A DNA stretch of 64,000 nt. Source: Escherichia phage vB_EcoM_01. The notes below the pieces were generated by a model, which was not told the origin of the DNA, did no database searches, and was given only the letters and a program-made list of their open reading frames with translations. Below, in pieces: positions 56,496 through 63,754 of the stretch. The stretch lies in sequence record PP129558; one strand, written 5' to 3'. Made by a program: the position numbers and the translations under genes. How positions within the stretch are numbered: position 1 is the stretch's first letter; each line of letters starts with the position of its first letter.

Positions 56496-56570
56496 GGCCC
56501 TGTAGCTCAATGGGAGAGCTGTCGGCTCATAACCGATAGGTAGCTGGATCGAAACCAGCCAGGGCCACCA
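56496..56570 (+). tRNA. tRNA with CAT anticodon (Met, or Ile via lysidine)
   Basis: Hand-folded cloverleaf: acceptor GGCCCTG/CAGGGCC, anticodon loop CTCATAA, CCA encoded. Confidence 0.65.
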
Positions 56571-56572
56571 AC

Positions 56573-56647
56573 GTCTTTATGGTGTAATGGATAGCACAGG
56601 AGTCTTCTAAACTCTTAGTCAAGGTTCGATTCCTTGTAAAGACACCA
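56573..56647 (+). tRNA. tRNA-Arg (anticodon TCT)
   Basis: Acceptor GTCTTTA/TAAAGAC, T-arm CAAGG-TTCGATT-CCTTG, loop CTTCTAA. Confidence 0.6.
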
Positions 56648-56844
56648 GAACATTTTAACATGAATTAGCTCAAGTGATTTGAACCCACTACTGATCATGG
56701 TGGCAGAGAATGAGGCAAGTATGTCAGACATTATAAACAAAGGCCACGGTTATATTAGAAGACATAAATGCTCGAAGAGCACCGTTCGTGGAGAGCGGGG
56801 GTTGGTGGAGTCACCATTCATGGTAAAATGTTTTAAAAAACTAT

Positions 56845-56879
56845 TGACAACTAACATTATTTTATGTTAGATTATAAGT
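56845..56879 (+). promoter_or_regulatory. Sigma70-like promoter upstream of tRNA-Ser genes
   Basis: TTGACA at 56845; TTAGAT/TATAAG -10 candidates; upstream A tract. Confidence 0.4.
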
Positions 56880-56881
56880 AT

Positions 56882-56972
56882 GGAAGGGCAAATCGACGTG
56901 GCGACGAAAACGGTCTTGAAAACCGCCGAGCTTGAAAGAGCCTTGGGAGTTCGACTCTCCCTCCTTCCGCCA
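56882..56972 (+). tRNA. tRNA-Ser (anticodon TGA), long variable arm
   Basis: Acceptor GGAAGGG/TCCTTCC, loop CTTGAAA, T-arm GGGAG-TTCGACT-CTCCC; D-arm irregular. Confidence 0.55.
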
Positions 56973-56977
56973 GATTA

Positions 56978-57063
56978 GGTAGATTGGTGAAATGGTAGCC
57001 ACGACAGTTTGCTAAACTGTAGTCGGAAACGGCGTGTAGGTTCGAGTCCTACATCTACCGCCA
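56978..57063 (+). tRNA. tRNA-Ser (anticodon GCT), long variable arm
   Basis: Acceptor GGTAGAT/ATCTACC, anticodon arm ACAGT-TTGCTAA-ACTGT. Confidence 0.7.
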
Positions 57064-57193
57064 AGTTCTTTTTAATGTAGCTTACTTTAGCAGAGTAAAT
57101 CTTCGGCAAGTGGCGGTAACCACTTTACCGATACCTCATAGTTAGTGGTGAGAACACTGGCTATTTTAAAAAGAATTTAAATATTAGTATTTA

Positions 57194-57281
57194 GGTGAGT
57201 TAATTCCGTAGGGGTAGCGGGGCAGACTGTAAATCTGTTATCATTGCGATTCGGGTGGTTCGACTCCATCACTCACCACCA
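57194..57281 (+). tRNA. tRNA-Tyr (anticodon GTA), long variable arm
   Basis: Acceptor GGTGAGT/ACTCACC, loop CTGTAAA. Confidence 0.6.
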
Positions 57282-57287
57282 AATTAA

Positions 57288-57373
57288 GATGAGTTGGCTG
57301 AATGGTTTAAGCGGCGGACTGTTAATCCGTGTTCGAAAGAACAATATAGGTTCGAATCCTATACTCATCGCCA
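57288..57373 (+). tRNA. tRNA with long variable arm, anticodon uncertain (best fold reads GTT)
   Basis: Acceptor GATGAGT/ACTCATC, T-arm ATAGG-TTCGAAT-CCTAT; D-arm poorly formed. Confidence 0.45.
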
Positions 57374-57463
57374 GAATTATGGACTTGTAGAGTTAAGGTA
57401 AACCCCCAGTCGCCAATAGGCTTCTGGAATTGCAGGTATCGAATCCTGCCGAGTCCCAGCATT

Positions 57464-57538
57464 GCTCCTATAGTATAATGGCTATTACAACGGTTTTGTA
57501 ATCCGTGGATCTCTGTTCGATTCAGTGTGGGAGCACCA
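57464..57538 (+). tRNA. tRNA-Thr (anticodon TGT)
   Basis: Acceptor GCTCCTA/TGGGAGC, loop TTTGTAA, T-loop TTCGATT. Confidence 0.55.
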
Positions 57539-57811
57539 ACACAACATTAAGAGCACTGTGATTGATCGTCGTATCCTGTGCACAAGGTCTGCTCGAAAGA
57601 CAGTGTTCTTAGTATTGTGTTGATCACAAAAAGAGTCACCCGAAACTTGACCGGAGTAGGGTTGGATGGGGCAAAATGAGAAGCGGCTCTCCCATCGACA
57701 GCAACGAAGAATAATATTTGACTTTGGTTTTGTATTATTTTAAGTTAGCTTACCGAACGTAGGGCTAGTCACCCAACGGGATACTCGTCACTGTCCCAAT
57801 CAATAAAAGTC

Positions 57812-57840
57812 TTGACAACAAATAGTAAAATGTAGTATAG
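57812..57840 (+). promoter_or_regulatory. Sigma70-like promoter (TTGACA-N16-TAGTAT) inside tRNA region
   Basis: Motif upstream of tRNA-Gly. Confidence 0.45.
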
Positions 57841-57852
57841 TAAATATATAGG

Positions 57853-57926
57853 GCGTTCTTGGTGTAGCGGTAGCATTCCGTCCTTCCAAGTCGGCGGCAC
57901 GAGTTCGATCCTCGTAGAACGCTCCA
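57853..57926 (+). tRNA. tRNA-Gly (anticodon TCC)
   Basis: Acceptor GCGTTCT/AGAACGC, T-arm ACGAG-TTCGATC-CTCGT, loop CTTCCAA. Confidence 0.6.
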
Positions 57927-58024
57927 AATTATTTAATAAAGGGTTGCCAGAAAACTTTCTCTTTTACTCATGGTTTTCTCCTTCTCTCACACTTCTTCTG
58001 GTTGCCCTTCATTAAATGATTTAT

Positions 58025-58100
58025 TGGTTTGTAGTGTAGTCCGGTAGCACACGACACTTTGACTGTCGTAGGTTTGGTTCAAATCCAGACAGACCAGCCA
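58025..58100 (+). tRNA. tRNA-Gln (anticodon TTG)
   Basis: Acceptor TGGTTTG/CAGACCA, anticodon arm CGACA-CTTTGAC-TGTCG. Confidence 0.65.
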
Positions 58101-58267
58101 TATAACGGAATTTAGCTCAGTTTGGTAGAGCGTACGCTTTGGGAGCGTAGGGTCGCAGGTTCGAATCCTGCAATNCNGACAGACCAGCCATATAACGGAA
58201 TTTAGCTCAGTTTGGTAGAGCGTACGCTTTGGGAGCGTAGGGTCGCAGGTTCGAATCCTGCAATTCC
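58088..58267. repeat. Exact ~90-bp tandem duplication spanning tRNA-Gln 3' end and tRNA-Pro, N bases at junction (probable assembly artifact)
   Basis: 58088-58177 equals 58178-58267; Ns at 58175 and 58177. Confidence 0.7.
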
Positions 58268-58272
58268 GACCA
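58196..58272 (+). tRNA. tRNA-Pro (anticodon TGG); a redundant copy at 58106-58182 lacks a proper 3' end
   Basis: Acceptor CGGAATT/AATTCCG, anticodon arm TACGC-TTTGGGA-GCGTA, T-loop TTCGAAT. Confidence 0.65.
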
Positions 58273-58278
58273 ATTAAA

Positions 58279-58352
58279 TGTTTCGTAGTTCAATGGTAGA
58301 ACCCACGACTGATAATCGTGAGACACAAGTTCGATTCTTGTCGAAACAACCA
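58279..58352 (+). tRNA. tRNA-Ile (anticodon GAT)
   Basis: Acceptor TGTTTCG/CGAAACA, anticodon arm CACGA-CTGATAA-TCGTG. Confidence 0.7.
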
Positions 58353-58430
58353 GTTTCCCGTTAGACTTACAGGATAAGAGATCCACAATTTATTGTGACG
58401 CTGGTTCGAATCCAGCACGGGATACCTAAT

Positions 58431-58509
58431 AGCGGGATAGAGGAGTCTGGTCGTCCTCGCCAGTTTCATATGCTGGAGATCATTGGTTCAAATCCAATTC
58501 CCGCCTCCA
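58431..58509 (+). tRNA. Second tRNA with CAT anticodon (Met/fMet or Ile2), A1-C72 mismatch
   Basis: T-arm ATTGG-TTCAAAT-CCAAT, anticodon arm CCAGT-TTCATAT-GCTGG. Confidence 0.5.
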
Positions 58510-60011: not shown

Positions 60012-62087
60012 GTGGCAAAGAAAAAGGCAGCAGGTAGTTTAGCTGGAGTAGATATTGAAGTAAAGGCTCAACCAGGTAAACAGACTCTTGCAATGGATTT
60101 AATGCCAGAAGTTATGATTTATGGTGGTGCCGCTGGATGTGTTTCGGCTGAAACGGAATATCTTACAAAAGATGGTTGGAGGCAGATTAGTGAATATTCG
60201 GGAGAGGATATTTACCAATACAATCCTAAGAATAAGCGTTTAGAATTGGTAACACCTTATTTTGTAGAATATGATTTAAATGGAGATAACCTATACAGAA
60301 TAACAAATGGTGTAGGATTGTTCCAAGAACTTAGTATGGAACACCGTTTTGTATTCTATAAGAAAAAGAAATCAAAGAAACATTTCGAGATTCTTGTAGG
60401 AGATCTTATTGCATTACAGCAAATAGGAAAACCCCTGCAAGGTTATGTAGAAAATCCATTCGGTAAACGTGTTCCTTTTAACATACCTGGTAAAAAGAGC
60501 ACTTACTTAAAAATACACGAGGTTATTTCAACAGATGATAAGAAATATTGTTTTGAGACTCCAAGCAGCTATATTGTCTTTAGACGTGGCGATCACTGCT
60601 TCGTTACTGGGAATAGCGGCAAGTCTCGTCTGCTATTGCTGAAAGCTTTAAAATACGCCTACAAAGACCCTTTGTTTGGTGGAATACTTTTCCGTAAGAA
60701 CACCACTGCTCACCGTAAACCAGGTGGTCTGTTTACAGAAGCAAAACGTTTGTATCTTCCTTTACAACCACACGTAAAAGAAAGTACAATGGATATCATT
60801 TTTGAAGCCACTGGTGGTGGAACCCTCAAATTTGACCATTTGGAAAATGATAACGTAACAGCAGAAACAAACCATCAGGGTACACAGTATTCAATGGTAG
60901 GTTTTGACGAGTTAACCCACTTCACACAATATGAAATGCTCTATCTTCTGGGACGTATGCGTTCAGAGTCAGAAACAAGTTTCATGTTGTGCACATGTAA
61001 CCCTGACGCAGATAGTTGGGTTTTGAATTGGGTGTTACCTTATCTTGATGAGGGTGGTTATCCTAGAGAAGATATGTGTGGTAAACAAAAATATTTCATC
61101 ATTGTTAACGATGAACCTGTTTTTGCTGACACACCTGAAGAACTGAAAGAAAAATATCCAGAAAACTGTTTCATGGAAAACCCTAATACAGGGGAGACAG
61201 TTGTTATTGAACCACAAACTTTCGTATTTATTGGTGGGACAATATTTGATAACCCAGAACTCATTAGGCTTAACCCTAATTACCTAGCACAGCTTAAATC
61301 ACAAACAGCGATCAAAAGAGCACAGCTTCTGGACGGTTGTTGGTTTGCACGTATCCAGAAAGAATCTTTCTTTCAACGTGAATGGTTACATAAAATATCT
61401 TATAAAGATGTTCCTAACAATCTTAAACTAATGCGAGCATGGGATAAAGCTGTTTCAGTTCCTACAGAAACTTACCGTTATCCAGACTATACAACATCTG
61501 TCAAAATGGGTAAAGATCAAGATGGTAATATCTACATCTTTGGCGACTATGATTATGATGCTGTGGATGAGAAAAGTAAAATTTTCGGAAGGTTTCGAAG
61601 ACTACCTGGGGAAAGGGATAATTTGATTCTAAATCAATGTAAGATTGATGGACCAGAAGTTACAGTAGTGCTTCCTAAAGACCCATCTGGTGCTGGGACA
61701 ATAGAATACACAGAGTCTGCAAAGAAACTTATTCTAGAAGGTTTTGTTGTTAAACCAGATGCTATGCCAGGTAACAAGAAAAAGCTTCAGCGTTTTATGC
61801 CTTTTAGTAGTGCGTGTCAAAACGGCTTTGTTTATATTGTTGAAGATTCTTTCCCTAATGTGGAAACTTTAACCCACTTTTATAAAGAATTGGAATCTTT
61901 CAATGGTGAAAGATCTACAGCCACTATTAAAGATGACATTCCCGATGCTGCTGCCTCTTGTTTTAATACTCTGTCAAAAGAGAATACTTTCAAAGCAGTA
62001 GCAATCCCTACAACAACAAATGCTCCTACAGGATACAGTAGAATGAACAGCGGATTTCACCAACCGTATAGTGTCCGTAAAAGATAA
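60012..62087 (+). CDS. terL: Terminase large subunit (ATPase + nuclease), interrupted by a probable mini-intein
   Basis: Walker B MVGFDE; P-loop GGAAG / SGKS split by ~159-aa insert; GTG start after AGGAGGG. Confidence 0.75.
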   Translation: MAKKKAAGSLAGVDIEVKAQPGKQTLAMDLMPEVMIYGGAAGCVSAETEYLTKDGWRQISEYSGEDIYQYNPKNKRLELVTPYFVEYDLNGDNLYRITNGVGLFQELSMEHRFVFYKKKKSKKHFEILVGDLIALQQIGKPLQGYVENPFGKRVPFNIPGKKSTYLKIHEVISTDDKKYCFETPSSYIVFRRGDHCFVTGNSGKSRLLLLKALKYAYKDPLFGGILFRKNTTAHRKPGGLFTEAKRLYLPLQPHVKESTMDIIFEATGGGTLKFDHLENDNVTAETNHQGTQYSMVGFDELTHFTQYEMLYLLGRMRSESETSFMLCTCNPDADSWVLNWVLPYLDEGGYPREDMCGKQKYFIIVNDEPVFADTPEELKEKYPENCFMENPNTGETVVIEPQTFVFIGGTIFDNPELIRLNPNYLAQLKSQTAIKRAQLLDGCWFARIQKESFFQREWLHKISYKDVPNNLKLMRAWDKAVSVPTETYRYPDYTTSVKMGKDQDGNIYIFGDYDYDAVDEKSKIFGRFRRLPGERDNLILNQCKIDGPEVTVVLPKDPSGAGTIEYTESAKKLILEGFVVKPDAMPGNKKKLQRFMPFSSACQNGFVYIVEDSFPNVETLTHFYKELESFNGERSTATIKDDIPDAAASCFNTLSKENTFKAVAIPTTTNAPTGYSRMNSGFHQPYSVRKR
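60138..60614 (+). other. Probable mini-intein (159 aa) in terminase Walker A motif
   Basis: Starts with Cys (CVSAETEYL), ends ...FVTGN followed by Ser; removal restores GGAAGSGKS. Confidence 0.55.
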
Positions 62088-62188: not shown

Positions 62189-63754
62189 GTGTCAACAGGA
62201 AAAAGAACGTACACTAAAAAGTCAGAATACTGGGACAAAGGTGCTGCAAATAAAGCTGCTCTCTCTCCAACAAAAGAGGCAGAGAAAGAGAAAACGTTAC
62301 TCCTGTCACCTGAAATAGGAACGATCGGATTAAACTCAATCAAAGCATTTACGAATTTCATGCAACCTTATGAGACTCGTTTCCCAGAATGTATTCGCAC
62401 TTTTAAAGAGATGGGTGAAGACCCTGATGTAGCTACTGCTCTTGATGCTACATATATCTTTGTAGATAGAGCATTCTTTGATTTCAAGATAAAATACAAT
62501 GTAAACTCGGCAAAGTCAAGAAAAGCTGCTAAGTTTATTGATTACATGTTACGCAATATGCAAGCCCCTCTACGTCAATATGTTAGATCACTTTTGACAT
62601 ATAAGCAATATGGTTTTGCATTTGCAGAGAAAGTTTATGAGTTGGATGAAGATCCTAAAAGTCCTTACTTTGGGTATTGGCGATTAACCAAACTGGCTTT
62701 TAGACCACAAGACACTCTTCACATGGCTCAACCTTTTACATATTCGGCAGACGGACGTTCTATTCTATCTGTTAACCAGAATATCACCAATACGATGTTA
62801 GCTCCAGGCAATACAACTTTAGAAACTGGTATTAAAGAAATTCCTTTCAGTAAAGTTTTATTTGTTGGTAGCAACATTACAGAGAATAACCCACTAGGAG
62901 TTAGTCCGCTTTTAGCTGTATATCGTAGCTGGCGTGAAAAATCTCTTATTCAGGAATTTGAGGTTATTGGGGTATCTAAAGATTTAGGTGGTATGCCAGT
63001 TCTTAAGGTTCCAAGTGACATTCTAAACAGGGCATCTTTAGATCCTGCTGGGGATGAAGCACAATCTCTTCGAGTTCTCCAAGCCAACATCGCTAACCTG
63101 CACTCTGGTGAGCAAGCCTACATGGTATTGCCTTCAGACGTTTATGAAGGCACAGTGATGCGTCAATACGATCTTGTATTCCAAGGTGTTGATGGCACAG
63201 GTAAACAGTTTGACACTCAAGCACTAATCAAACAACGCAAGCTAGATATTTATAACCGCTTTGGTGCGGGTGTGTTGATTATGGGTGATGGTGATGCAGG
63301 AAGTTTTGCGCTTTCTGACAACAAACAAACACTATTGTCTCATTTTATTGAGCGAGATGTAGATATTGTTGTAGAAGCTATAAACTCTCAACTGATCCCT
63401 CAAACACTACGACTAAACAATATCTTCCTTTCTGATGAAGATATGCCTAAGTTTGTCAGTGGTGAAATGGGTGATCCTGATATTGAAGTAAATGCTAAAG
63501 CTATTCAGCAGTTGGTAGCCTCTGGTGCAATACCTTTAACCCCAGAAGTTATTAACGAGTTCCTTGAAAAAATTGGTTTTGAATATCGCATCCCTGACGA
63601 TATTGTTGCCAATAAAGAGAAATTCTTTGAATTCATGGATAACTATATGCCTGACAAAACTTCACGATCAGGAGATGGTTTAGCTACAGCGGGAACTGGA
63701 ACATCTGATACTGTTTCTGCTTTAGATCCTTCAGCACAAAACCTGTCGAATTAA
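62189..63754 (+). CDS. Probable portal protein
   Basis: 521-aa ORF directly after terL; assigned by position and size only. Confidence 0.5.
   Translation: MSTGKRTYTKKSEYWDKGAANKAALSPTKEAEKEKTLLLSPEIGTIGLNSIKAFTNFMQPYETRFPECIRTFKEMGEDPDVATALDATYIFVDRAFFDFKIKYNVNSAKSRKAAKFIDYMLRNMQAPLRQYVRSLLTYKQYGFAFAEKVYELDEDPKSPYFGYWRLTKLAFRPQDTLHMAQPFTYSADGRSILSVNQNITNTMLAPGNTTLETGIKEIPFSKVLFVGSNITENNPLGVSPLLAVYRSWREKSLIQEFEVIGVSKDLGGMPVLKVPSDILNRASLDPAGDEAQSLRVLQANIANLHSGEQAYMVLPSDVYEGTVMRQYDLVFQGVDGTGKQFDTQALIKQRKLDIYNRFGAGVLIMGDGDAGSFALSDNKQTLLSHFIERDVDIVVEAINSQLIPQTLRLNNIFLSDEDMPKFVSGEMGDPDIEVNAKAIQQLVASGAIPLTPEVINEFLEKIGFEYRIPDDIVANKEKFFEFMDNYMPDKTSRSGDGLATAGTGTSDTVSALDPSAQNLSN

What the first reader, a model, noticed from the sequence alone, without database searches (positions are those of the whole stretch)
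60138..60614. Probable mini-intein splitting the Walker A P-loop of the large terminase
The terminase N-terminus reads ...MIYGGAAG-CVSAETEYL...(159 aa)...DHCFVTGN-SGKSRLLLL. The insert begins with Cys, ends with Asn, and is followed by Ser. Removing it restores a canonical P-loop GGAAGSGKS. A candidate block B (SMEH) is present, and at ~159 aa there is no room for a homing endonuclease domain. Packaging would then depend on protein splicing.
Basis: partly seen in the sequence, partly recalled or inferred. Interest (0 to 1): 0.65.

Follow-up and report, generated by a model that had tools for sequence, protein, structure and literature searches.

The report
Unannotated mini-intein in coliphage terminase P-loop
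The DNA-packaging enzyme gene of this phAPEC8-like E. coli phage carries a real 159-residue self-splicing protein insert (a mini-intein) in the middle of its ATP-binding loop; the kind of element is already known, but this one is unannotated and has unusual active-site residues.

Summary
TerL (60012-62087, 691 aa) carries a 159-aa in-frame insert (60138-60614) reading GGAAG|C...TGN|SGKS. The intein reading is supported.

- Related phages have the uninterrupted GGAAGSGKS. One of them, Klebsiella phage KP13-16, is in the same subfamily.
- Homologous inserts sit in unrelated proteins (PhoH, DnaB, DnaC-like, RtcB, RNR). About two thirds lie at this same Walker A position.
- dN/dS of the insert (0.06) equals that of the terminase.
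- Relatives of 310-330 aa carry a LAGLIDADG-like domain at the position where this copy has only a short loop.

Terminase P-loop inteins are known, so this is a new member of a known kind. It is unannotated in every record and feature listing inspected, out of about 133 phage genomes that carry it, and Pfam and NCBIfam intein models do not match it. It combines the class 1 nucleophile Cys1 with class 3 hallmarks (Cys F:4, Thr G:5) and has Gly in place of the penultimate His. Which cysteine starts splicing is unresolved.

The parts
60012..62087 (+). TerL precursor ORF (691 aa plus stop; calculated 78.7 kDa). It is the only TerL homolog found per related genome.
   Evidence: Terminase_6N E 5e-17; one place per record; phrog_979 E 1e-216
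60012..60137 (+). N-extein, aa 1-42. It ends with GGAAG (60123-60137), the first half of the Walker A motif G-A-A-G|S-G-K-S.
   Evidence: uninterrupted homologs
60138..60614 (+). Mini-intein, 159 aa (calculated 18.6 kDa), HINT fold, no homing endonuclease domain.
60138..60176 (+). Block A (CVSAETEYLTKDG), containing Cys1.
   Evidence: Cys1 is present in 221 of 222 family members; T6, E7, G13 and W14 are conserved
60315..60356 (+). Block B (GLFQELSMEHRFVF): Ser66 (B:7), His69 (B:10), Arg70 (B:11), Phe71 (B:12).
   Evidence: His is invariant in 222 of 222; B:12 is hydrophobic and never Trp; aligns with KVSPNHRMIY of AceL NrdHF
60360..60380 (+). Lys-rich loop KKKKSKK, at the position where full-length relatives carry the endonuclease domain.
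   Evidence: Conserved in mini-intein TerL homologs of 56-87% identity; alignment gap against full-length members
60540..60587 (+). Block F (KKYCFETPSSYIVFRR): Cys138 at F:4 (60549-60551) and Pro142. There is no His at F:13.
   Evidence: F:4 is Cys in 215 of 222 by fixed offset and about 219 after allowing for indels; aligns with EFH(C)LSVPGKSFVV of AceL NrdHF
60594..60617 (+). Block G (HCFVTGN|S): Thr157 (G:5), Gly158 (G:6), Asn159 (G:7), Ser +1.
   Evidence: Gly 208, Asn 217 and Thr 172 of 222; AceL NrdHF ends SVTG(N)|S
60615..62084 (+). C-extein, aa 202-691. It begins with SGKS (60615-60626), the second half of the Walker A motif. The spliced TerL would be 532 aa (60.1 kDa).

Best explanation
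The segment is a functional, endonuclease-less mini-intein fixed in the large terminase gene of phAPEC8-like and phi92-like phages. TerL is translated as a 78.7-kDa precursor whose Walker A loop is split between its fourth and fifth residues, so it should be unable to bind ATP. The HINT domain then excises itself and joins Gly42 to Ser202, which gives a 60.1-kDa TerL with GGAAGSGKS and a free 18.6-kDa intein. The most likely chemistry has four steps. Cys1 forms the first thioester, activated by Ser66 and His69. The acyl group passes to Ser +1, with Cys138 (F:4) and Thr157 (G:5) lining the active site. Asn159 then cyclises without a penultimate His, probably helped by Arg70 as in AceL NrdHF. 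Finally an O-to-N shift forms the peptide bond. The element descends from a LAGLIDADG-bearing intein family that repeatedly targets this Walker A position in many ATPases. This copy has lost the endonuclease and is now inherited vertically. Shown here: the fold, the homology, the empty sites, the conservation and the absence of an endonuclease domain. Inferred: splicing itself and the order of the steps.
Against: No splicing product has been observed. Pfam and NCBIfam intein models give no match at E<=1. The penultimate His and the block F His are absent, and F:4 is Cys rather than the usual class 1 Asp. The closest characterised relative uses the F:4 Cys, not residue 1, as its first nucleophile (PMC7891396), so the order of steps proposed here may be wrong.
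Confidence: 0.9

Rival explanations
1. It is an intein, but it splices by the class 3 route or by a two-cysteine relay. Cys138 (F:4), in a Cys-His-Thr triad with His69 and Thr157, attacks the N-terminal junction and forms a block F branched thioester before transfer to Ser +1. Cys1 would then be dispensable or play a secondary role.
For: The nearest characterised relative, AceL NrdHF, is experimentally class 3 and shares Ser B:7, His B:10, Arg B:11, a hydrophobic B:12, Cys F:4, Pro four residues after it, and TGN|S (PMC7891396). F:4 Cys is about 97-99% conserved and G:5 Thr 77%. Family member P0079 begins with Pro, not Cys, and keeps Cys F:4 and TGN|S. Most +1 residues are Ser or Thr, and the P-loop location is typical of class 3 (PMC2807308).
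Against: Cys1 is conserved in 221 of 222 members, unlike class 3 inteins, which are operationally defined by having no Cys at position 1 (PMC7891396). Trp B:12 is never present. Two members have Ser and one has Asp at F:4 while keeping Cys1, so Cys1 alone may be sufficient.
Confidence: 0.3
2. It is a permanent, non-splicing accessory domain of the terminase, for example a DNA-binding or regulatory module, that stays in the mature enzyme.
For: It is conserved in about 133 related genomes under strong purifying selection. It has a conserved Lys-rich loop. One GenBank record calls it an 'N-terminal endonuclease domain'.
Against: It interrupts the eight-residue Walker A loop. All nucleophiles needed for splicing are conserved (Cys1, Asn159, Ser +1). 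The same domain occurs in at least ten unrelated host protein families, mostly at the same P-loop position. KP13-16 in the same subfamily lacks it precisely. The fold and sequence match a proven intein.
Confidence: 0.03
3. It is an intein whose splicing is conditional and times or throttles DNA packaging, for example through a redox-sensitive Cys1-Cys138 pair, rather than a constitutively splicing passenger.
For: There are two conserved active-site cysteines. A P-loop DnaB intein has been reported as an oxidative-stress sensor (PMC6195587, abstract seen). Conserved-site inteins have been proposed to be beneficial (PMC4760082).
Against: There is no direct evidence. The equal dN/dS of intein and extein is explained simply by the need to splice. 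The endonuclease-loss series fits a selfish element after fixation.
Confidence: 0.07

Closest known systems
AceL NrdHF-1-1 split intein (PDB 6ZGQ; Hoffmann et al. 2020, PMC7891396)
   Different: AceL NrdHF starts with Ala, is naturally split by a GIY-YIG endonuclease gene, sits in RNR beta and is proven class 3. The window intein starts with Cys, is contiguous and sits in the TerL Walker A motif. Its mechanism is untested.
Mycobacteriophage TerL1-a and TerL1-b P-loop inteins (Kelley et al. 2016, PMC5050341)
   Same: They are inteins in the Walker A motif of the large terminase ATPase domain. Phage class 1 inteins often lack the penultimate His. Splicing was demonstrated for several of them.
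   Different: Their host is Terminase_1, not Terminase_6. TerL1-a lies between the Walker Lys and Thr and TerL1-b one residue away, whereas here the insert lies three residues upstream, at G|SGKS. The only Terminase_6 site reported there (TerL6-f) is in the C-motif. No sequence relationship was tested.
Class 3 inteins (MP-Be DnaB, Msm DnaBi1, MchDnaB1; PMC2807308, PMC5222942, PMC7664689)
   Same: Cys at F:4, Thr at G:5 and mostly Ser or Thr at +1. They prefer ATPase P-loops of helicases and terminases and have a proposed phage origin.
   Different: They lack an N-terminal nucleophile and have Trp at B:12 and usually His at G:6. The window intein has Cys1, Phe at B:12 and Gly at G:6.
Unannotated same-site inteins in other phage TerL genes (Escherichia phage Av-05, Vibrio phage 501E54-1, metagenomic P0007, P0010, P0023)
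   Same: They are inserted at the same GGxAG|SGKS site, with homologous blocks A, B, F and G.
   Different: Av-05 has 241 aa with a partly deleted endonuclease region. P0007, P0010 and P0023 have 323-329 aa with a LAGLIDADG-like domain. The Vibrio copy is a 146-aa mini-intein only 30-33% identical.

Membership tests
Intein (HINT-fold protein-splicing element) | HINT fold | tested here: met
Intein (HINT-fold protein-splicing element) | In-frame insertion at a conserved site of a host protein, with intein-free homologs | tested here: met
   GGAAG|...|SGKS here against uninterrupted GGAAGSGKS in KP13-16, Aeromonas DL and 4L372D, and PVP-SE1.
Intein (HINT-fold protein-splicing element) | Splice-junction residues: Cys, Ser or Thr at position 1, C-terminal Asn, and Cys, Ser or Thr at +1 | tested here: met
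   Cys1, Asn159 and Ser +1. Family frequencies are 221, 217 and 222 of 222.
Intein (HINT-fold protein-splicing element) | Block B Thr/Ser-x-x-His | tested here: met
   S66-M-E-H69. His is invariant in 222 of 222.
Intein (HINT-fold protein-splicing element) | Match to curated intein sequence models (Pfam intein and Hint families; NCBIfam TIGR01445 intein_Nterm) | tested here: not met
   No hit at E<=1 in Pfam or NCBIfam. Full-length relatives are also missed, with one sub-threshold TIGR01445 hit. This reflects model coverage and does not define membership.
Intein (HINT-fold protein-splicing element) | Autocatalytic excision with ligation of the exteins | not testable with these tools
   Inferred from the essential single-copy TerL and a dN/dS of 0.06.
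Mini-intein (no homing endonuclease) | No endonuclease domain between blocks B and F | tested here: met
   159 aa, all modelled as HINT strands plus one helix. Relatives of 310-330 aa carry an extra LAGLIDADG-like domain there (PF14528 on two hits; weak I-DmoI and VMA matches).
Class 1 intein | N-terminal Cys, Ser or Thr nucleophile | tested here: met
   Cys1, present in 221 of 222 family members.
Class 1 intein | Usual assisting residues: Asp at F:4 and His at G:6 | tested here: not met
   Cys138 and Gly158. These residues are common in class 1 inteins but not obligatory (PMC5050341).
Class 1 intein | A linear thioester at residue 1 as the first intermediate | not testable with these tools
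   Needs C1A and C138A mutants and trapping of the intermediate.
Class 3 intein | No nucleophile at position 1 | tested here: not met
   Cys1. The operational definition is quoted in PMC7891396.
Class 3 intein | Cys at F:4 and Thr at G:5 | tested here: met
   Cys138 and Thr157.
Class 3 intein | Trp at B:12 | tested here: not met
   Phe71. The family has V, I, M, F or L and never W. AceL NrdHF, which has Met here, is nevertheless class 3.
Class 3 intein | A block F branched thioester intermediate | not testable with these tools
   Requires biochemistry.
Bacterial intein-like (BIL) domain | Lacks the +1 nucleophile and mainly cleaves | tested here: not met
   Ser +1 is present and conserved as S, C or T in 222 of 222.
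Terminase_6 large terminase (the host protein) | Terminase_6N ATPase domain with a Walker A motif, plus a C-terminal nuclease domain | tested here: met
   PF03237 E 5e-17 from residue 202. phrog_979 E 1e-216. The portal gene follows at 62189.

The most novel reading that the evidence does not exclude
The window intein belongs to a very large, P-loop-seeking phage intein clade: 15,538 cluster representatives match at E<=1e-10, although the search profile also covers the endonuclease domain. The clade keeps both the class 1 nucleophile (Cys1, 221 of 222) and the class 3 catalytic set (Cys F:4 about 97-99%, His B:10 100%, Thr G:5 77%). It includes a proven class 3 member with Ala1 (AceL NrdHF) and a member with Pro1 (P0079). 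[quoted passage not shown] That would argue for a divergent rather than convergent origin of class 3 inteins.
Probability: 0.25. Interest if true: 0.65.

Novelty: new member of a known kind. Interest (0 to 1): 0.45.

Why it matters
There are three reasons, all modest.

1. Annotation. Phages of the genera Phapecoctavirus and Justusliebigvirus (phAPEC8, phi92, BASEL Bas60-62 and many therapy candidates) all appear to make their packaging ATPase through protein splicing. No record or feature listing inspected says so. The BASEL table lists 0 inteins for Bas61, which carries the insert. A 2024 paper states that no inteins have been reported in coliphages. The insert also contaminates family profiles: through it, TerL hits a 'PhoH-like' PHROG.

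2. Mechanism. The element joins class 1 and class 3 hallmarks, so it offers a cheap test case, in an E. coli phage, for how the two splicing routes relate.

3. Tools. It is a compact 159-aa intein with Ser +1 and a penultimate Gly, native to E. coli conditions, and is related to the fast AceL NrdHF intein. It could be useful for protein engineering.

Tried and rejected
- Pfam and NCBIfam scans of the insert and of six full-length relatives found no intein, Hint or LAGLIDADG family above threshold. I therefore switched to structure prediction and profile searches.
- A single-sequence phmmer search against the PDB gave only noise, with a best E of 0.05 to a portal protein. A family profile was needed.
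- The first word-indexed homolog search with the insert alone returned only 5 close fragments. The 10-sequence alignment returned 65.
- A profile search of all window ORFs for a second member of this intein family found only TerL.
- I looked for an intein-less Phapecoctavirus or Justusliebigvirus allele with a spliced-junction query. None appeared among the listed rows. The nearest empty site is KP13-16, at 62-63% identity. The listing was a sample, so a rare intein-less strain is not excluded.
- Tori & Perler 2011 (PMC3133030) and the phi92 genome paper (PMC3457257) are not held. What they say about Cys1-bearing WCT inteins or about phi92 gp119 could not be checked.
- Active-site distances in the model, such as Cys1 to Cys138, could not be measured because model coordinates are not exposed.
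- I considered the A-rich KKKKSKK-coding run as a frameshift site and dropped the idea. It is not a canonical in-frame X XXY YYZ heptamer, and the peptide is conserved at protein level.

Full report
**Observation.** The window comes from a phAPEC8-like E. coli myovirus (genus Phapecoctavirus, subfamily Stephanstirmvirinae). The 58-64 kb stretch is 99% identical to many such genomes. The ORF 60012..62087 (+, GTG start after AGGAGG) encodes 691 aa. It matches Terminase_6N only from residue 202 onward and the terminase PHROG 979 at E 1e-216. A tRNA cluster and spanin genes precede it and the portal gene follows it. The protein reads ...VMIYGGAAG|CVSAETEYL...FVTGN|SGKSRLLLL.

**Empty sites.** Related large terminases carry the junction uninterrupted.
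- Klebsiella phage KP13-16 is in the same subfamily. Its TerL is 514 aa and 62% identical over the exteins, and reads VLIYGGAAGSGKSRLILLKALKYA.
- Aeromonas phages vB_AdhM_DL and 4L372D read VMIYGGAAGSGKSRLLLIKALK.
- Salmonella phage PVP-SE1 and the Felix O1-like phages are also continuous.

Excision therefore restores the Walker A motif G-A-A-G-S-G-K-S. The insert lies between its fourth and fifth residues.

**Distribution.** A tblastn search with the insert alone finds it in 64 records at >=99% identity (Phapecoctavirus), 67 at 80-90% (Justusliebigvirus, including phi92 and BASEL Bas60-62) and 2 at 60-80%. These counts nearly match the number of records with a TerL of >=60% identity (135). 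The difference includes the intein-less KP13-16. Each genome has one TerL locus.

**It is a mobile intein type, not a terminase domain.**
- The N-terminal half of the insert also hits RtcB, ribonucleotide reductase, DnaB-type primase/helicase and PhoH genes of unrelated phages.
- Reading those genes shows homologous inserts with the same ends, C[VL]xxxTE[YVF]L...[YF]KYCF...TGN|[STC]. In PhoH (GFAG|..|TSKT), DnaB-like (GGSG|..|SGKT; GSASG|..|TGKS) and other TerL genes they sit at the same P-loop position.
- A profile search returned 65 proteins whose other domains include Terminase_3, Terminase_6N, IstB/DnaA/DnaC-like, ABC ATPase, PhoH, DnaB_C, Toprim, RNR small subunit, ThyX, metallophosphatase and prim-pol.
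- Against 1.84 billion cluster representatives the profile, which also covers the endonuclease domain, finds 20,326 proteins at E<=1e-3 and 15,538 at E<=1e-10. Some carry several copies.
- Of 222 complete members defined by the HMM alone, 147 lie directly before [STC][GSA]K[STD].

**Fold.** An AlphaFold2 model built on a 30-sequence alignment has mean pLDDT 95.9 and pTM 0.88. It is almost entirely beta strand, with one helix.
- Foldseek against the PDB returns only HINT-superfamily proteins at the top.
- A profile of the mini-inteins also finds 6ZGQ by sequence over its full length, E 5.9e-13. The alignment pairs ELSMEHRFVF with KVSPNHRMIY, KKYCFETPSSYIVF with EFH(C)LSVPGKSFVV, and FVTGN|S with SVTG(N)|S.
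- AceL NrdHF splices efficiently in vitro (PMC7891396).

**No endonuclease.** Family members of 310-330 aa carry about 170 extra residues between blocks B and F. That region gives weak but consistent matches to LAGLIDADG enzymes (I-DmoI and the VMA intein endonucleases; PF14528 on two hits). At the same TerL site there is a size series:
- 323-329 aa: P0007, and P0010 and P0023, which share the MIYGGAAG|..|SGKSRLLL extein context.
- 241 aa: Escherichia phage Av-05.
- 146-160 aa: this window, Vibrio phages and several metagenomic TerL genes.

This pattern is what endonuclease decay after fixation would produce.

**Selection.** Between the window and phi92, dS is saturated at about 1.5. dN/dS is 0.060 for the intein and 0.063 for the C-extein. 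The insert is therefore constrained as strongly as the essential enzyme that hosts it. Its GC content is slightly lower (34.6% against 38.7%).

**Mechanism.** The catalytic positions in the window intein are:

| Position | Residue |
|---|---|
| 1 | Cys1 |
| B:7 | Ser66 |
| B:10 | His69 |
| B:11 | Arg70 |
| B:12 | Phe71 |
| F:4 | Cys138 |
| four residues after F:4 | Pro142 |
| G:5 | Thr157 |
| G:6 | Gly158 |
| G:7 | Asn159 |
| +1 | Ser |

Across the 222 members:
- Position 1 is Cys in 221.
- B:10 is His in all 222.
- B:12 is never Trp.
- F:4 is Cys in 215 by fixed offset, and about 219 after allowing for indels. The true exceptions are two Ser and one Asp.
- G:6 is Gly in 208 and G:7 is Asn in 217.
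- +1 is Ser in 122, Cys in 76 and Thr in 24.

Cys F:4 and Thr G:5 are two of the three class 3 WCT signature residues (PMC2807308; PMC5222942). AceL NrdHF shares every one of these positions except residue 1, which is Ala, and is experimentally class 3. In that intein G145H abolishes activity and Arg B:11 assists the C-terminal step. One family member, P0079, begins with Pro.

The near-invariant Cys1 argues that residue 1 is needed in most members. I therefore favour class 1 type initiation, with Cys138 in an assisting role. I give the class 3 or relay alternative about 0.3. A penultimate Gly is no obstacle, because the Bethlehem RDF intein with Gly splices completely (PMC5050341).

**Comparison with what is known.** Inteins in terminase ATPase domains, including the P-loop, are well documented in mycobacteriophages (PMC5050341). 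P-loops are a general intein hot spot (PMC4760082). The kind is therefore not new. The differences here are:
- The host family is Terminase_6. The only site reported for that family in the mycobacteriophage study is the C-motif.
- The position within Walker A is G|SGKS, rather than between the Lys and the Thr.
- The catalytic signature is a hybrid of class 1 and class 3 features.
- The element has gone unnoticed. The GenBank features under the match read 'terminase large subunit', 'hypothetical protein' or, once, 'potential large terminase with N-terminal endonuclease domain'.
- BASEL Table S5 lists 0 inteins for Bas61, which carries the insert.
- Full-text searches found no paper linking an intein to phAPEC8, phi92 or their genera.

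**Verdict.** This is a new member of a known kind, of moderate interest. Splicing itself and the identity of the initiating cysteine remain to be shown experimentally.

Noticed in passing
window 60360-60380 (intein residues 75-81): A Lys-rich loop, KKKKSKK, encoded by an A-rich run, sits where full-length relatives carry the endonuclease domain. It is conserved (KKKSKK or KKKKSKK) in mini-intein TerL homologs down to 56% identity and is modelled with high confidence. Its role is unknown.
   Followed up: partly
window 60012-62084; PHROG profiles 979 and 32482: The PHROG 'terminase large subunit' profile 979 includes the intein at profile positions 17-172. TerL also hits the 'PhoH-like' PHROG 32482 (E 9e-15), purely through the intein. 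Intein sequence embedded in family profiles can therefore cause cross-annotation between unrelated ATPases.
   Followed up: partly
L004 (Aeromonas phage vB_AdhM_DL), L015 (4L372D), hit H67 (Klebsiella phage FKP3); rV5 (PMC3606486): TerL genes of relatives are interrupted elsewhere. In the two Aeromonas phages the gene is split after NHQG; in Klebsiella phage FKP3 an HNH endonuclease gene lies inside it; rV5 has two reported introns. The window's TerL is continuous there, so this terminase lineage is a hot spot for several kinds of selfish element.
   Followed up: partly
L006 (Escherichia phage Av-05, NC_025830 267-1397): Av-05 TerL carries a 241-aa intein at the same site, with a partly deleted endonuclease region. 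The annotated CDS stops at 376 aa, just after the Walker B region, so the gene is probably interrupted or mis-annotated downstream.
   Followed up: no
P0079 residues 39-361: This family member begins with Pro instead of Cys (VGPFG|PLSNDTEFLT...) and keeps YKYCF and TGN|SGKS. Within this clade it is either a natural class 3 like variant or a dead copy.
   Followed up: no
window 56496-58509: A cluster of 11 tRNA genes lies just upstream of the spanin and terminase genes. It includes two tandem tRNA-Pro(TGG) copies (58106-58180 and 58196-58272), whereas phage Mt1B1_P17 is annotated with one. This probably accounts for the roughly 90-bp length difference between strains.
   Followed up: partly
hits H12 (Acinetobacter phage vB_AbaM_ABPW7), H149 (Campylobacter phage A110a), H31 (Klebsiella phage ZCKP1): Records assigned to Acinetobacter and Klebsiella hosts carry a TerL 99.7-99.9% identical to the E. 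coli phages; the Campylobacter record A110a was matched only with the insert, at 86.8% like the phi92-type phages. This suggests a broad host range, host misassignment or contamination.
   Followed up: no
BASEL Table S5 (PMC8594841), Bas60 and Bas62: BASEL counts 2 inteins for Bas60 and 1 for Bas62, but 0 for Bas61. Some phi92-like genomes therefore carry further inteins elsewhere. A profile search found no second member of this family in the window.
   Followed up: partly
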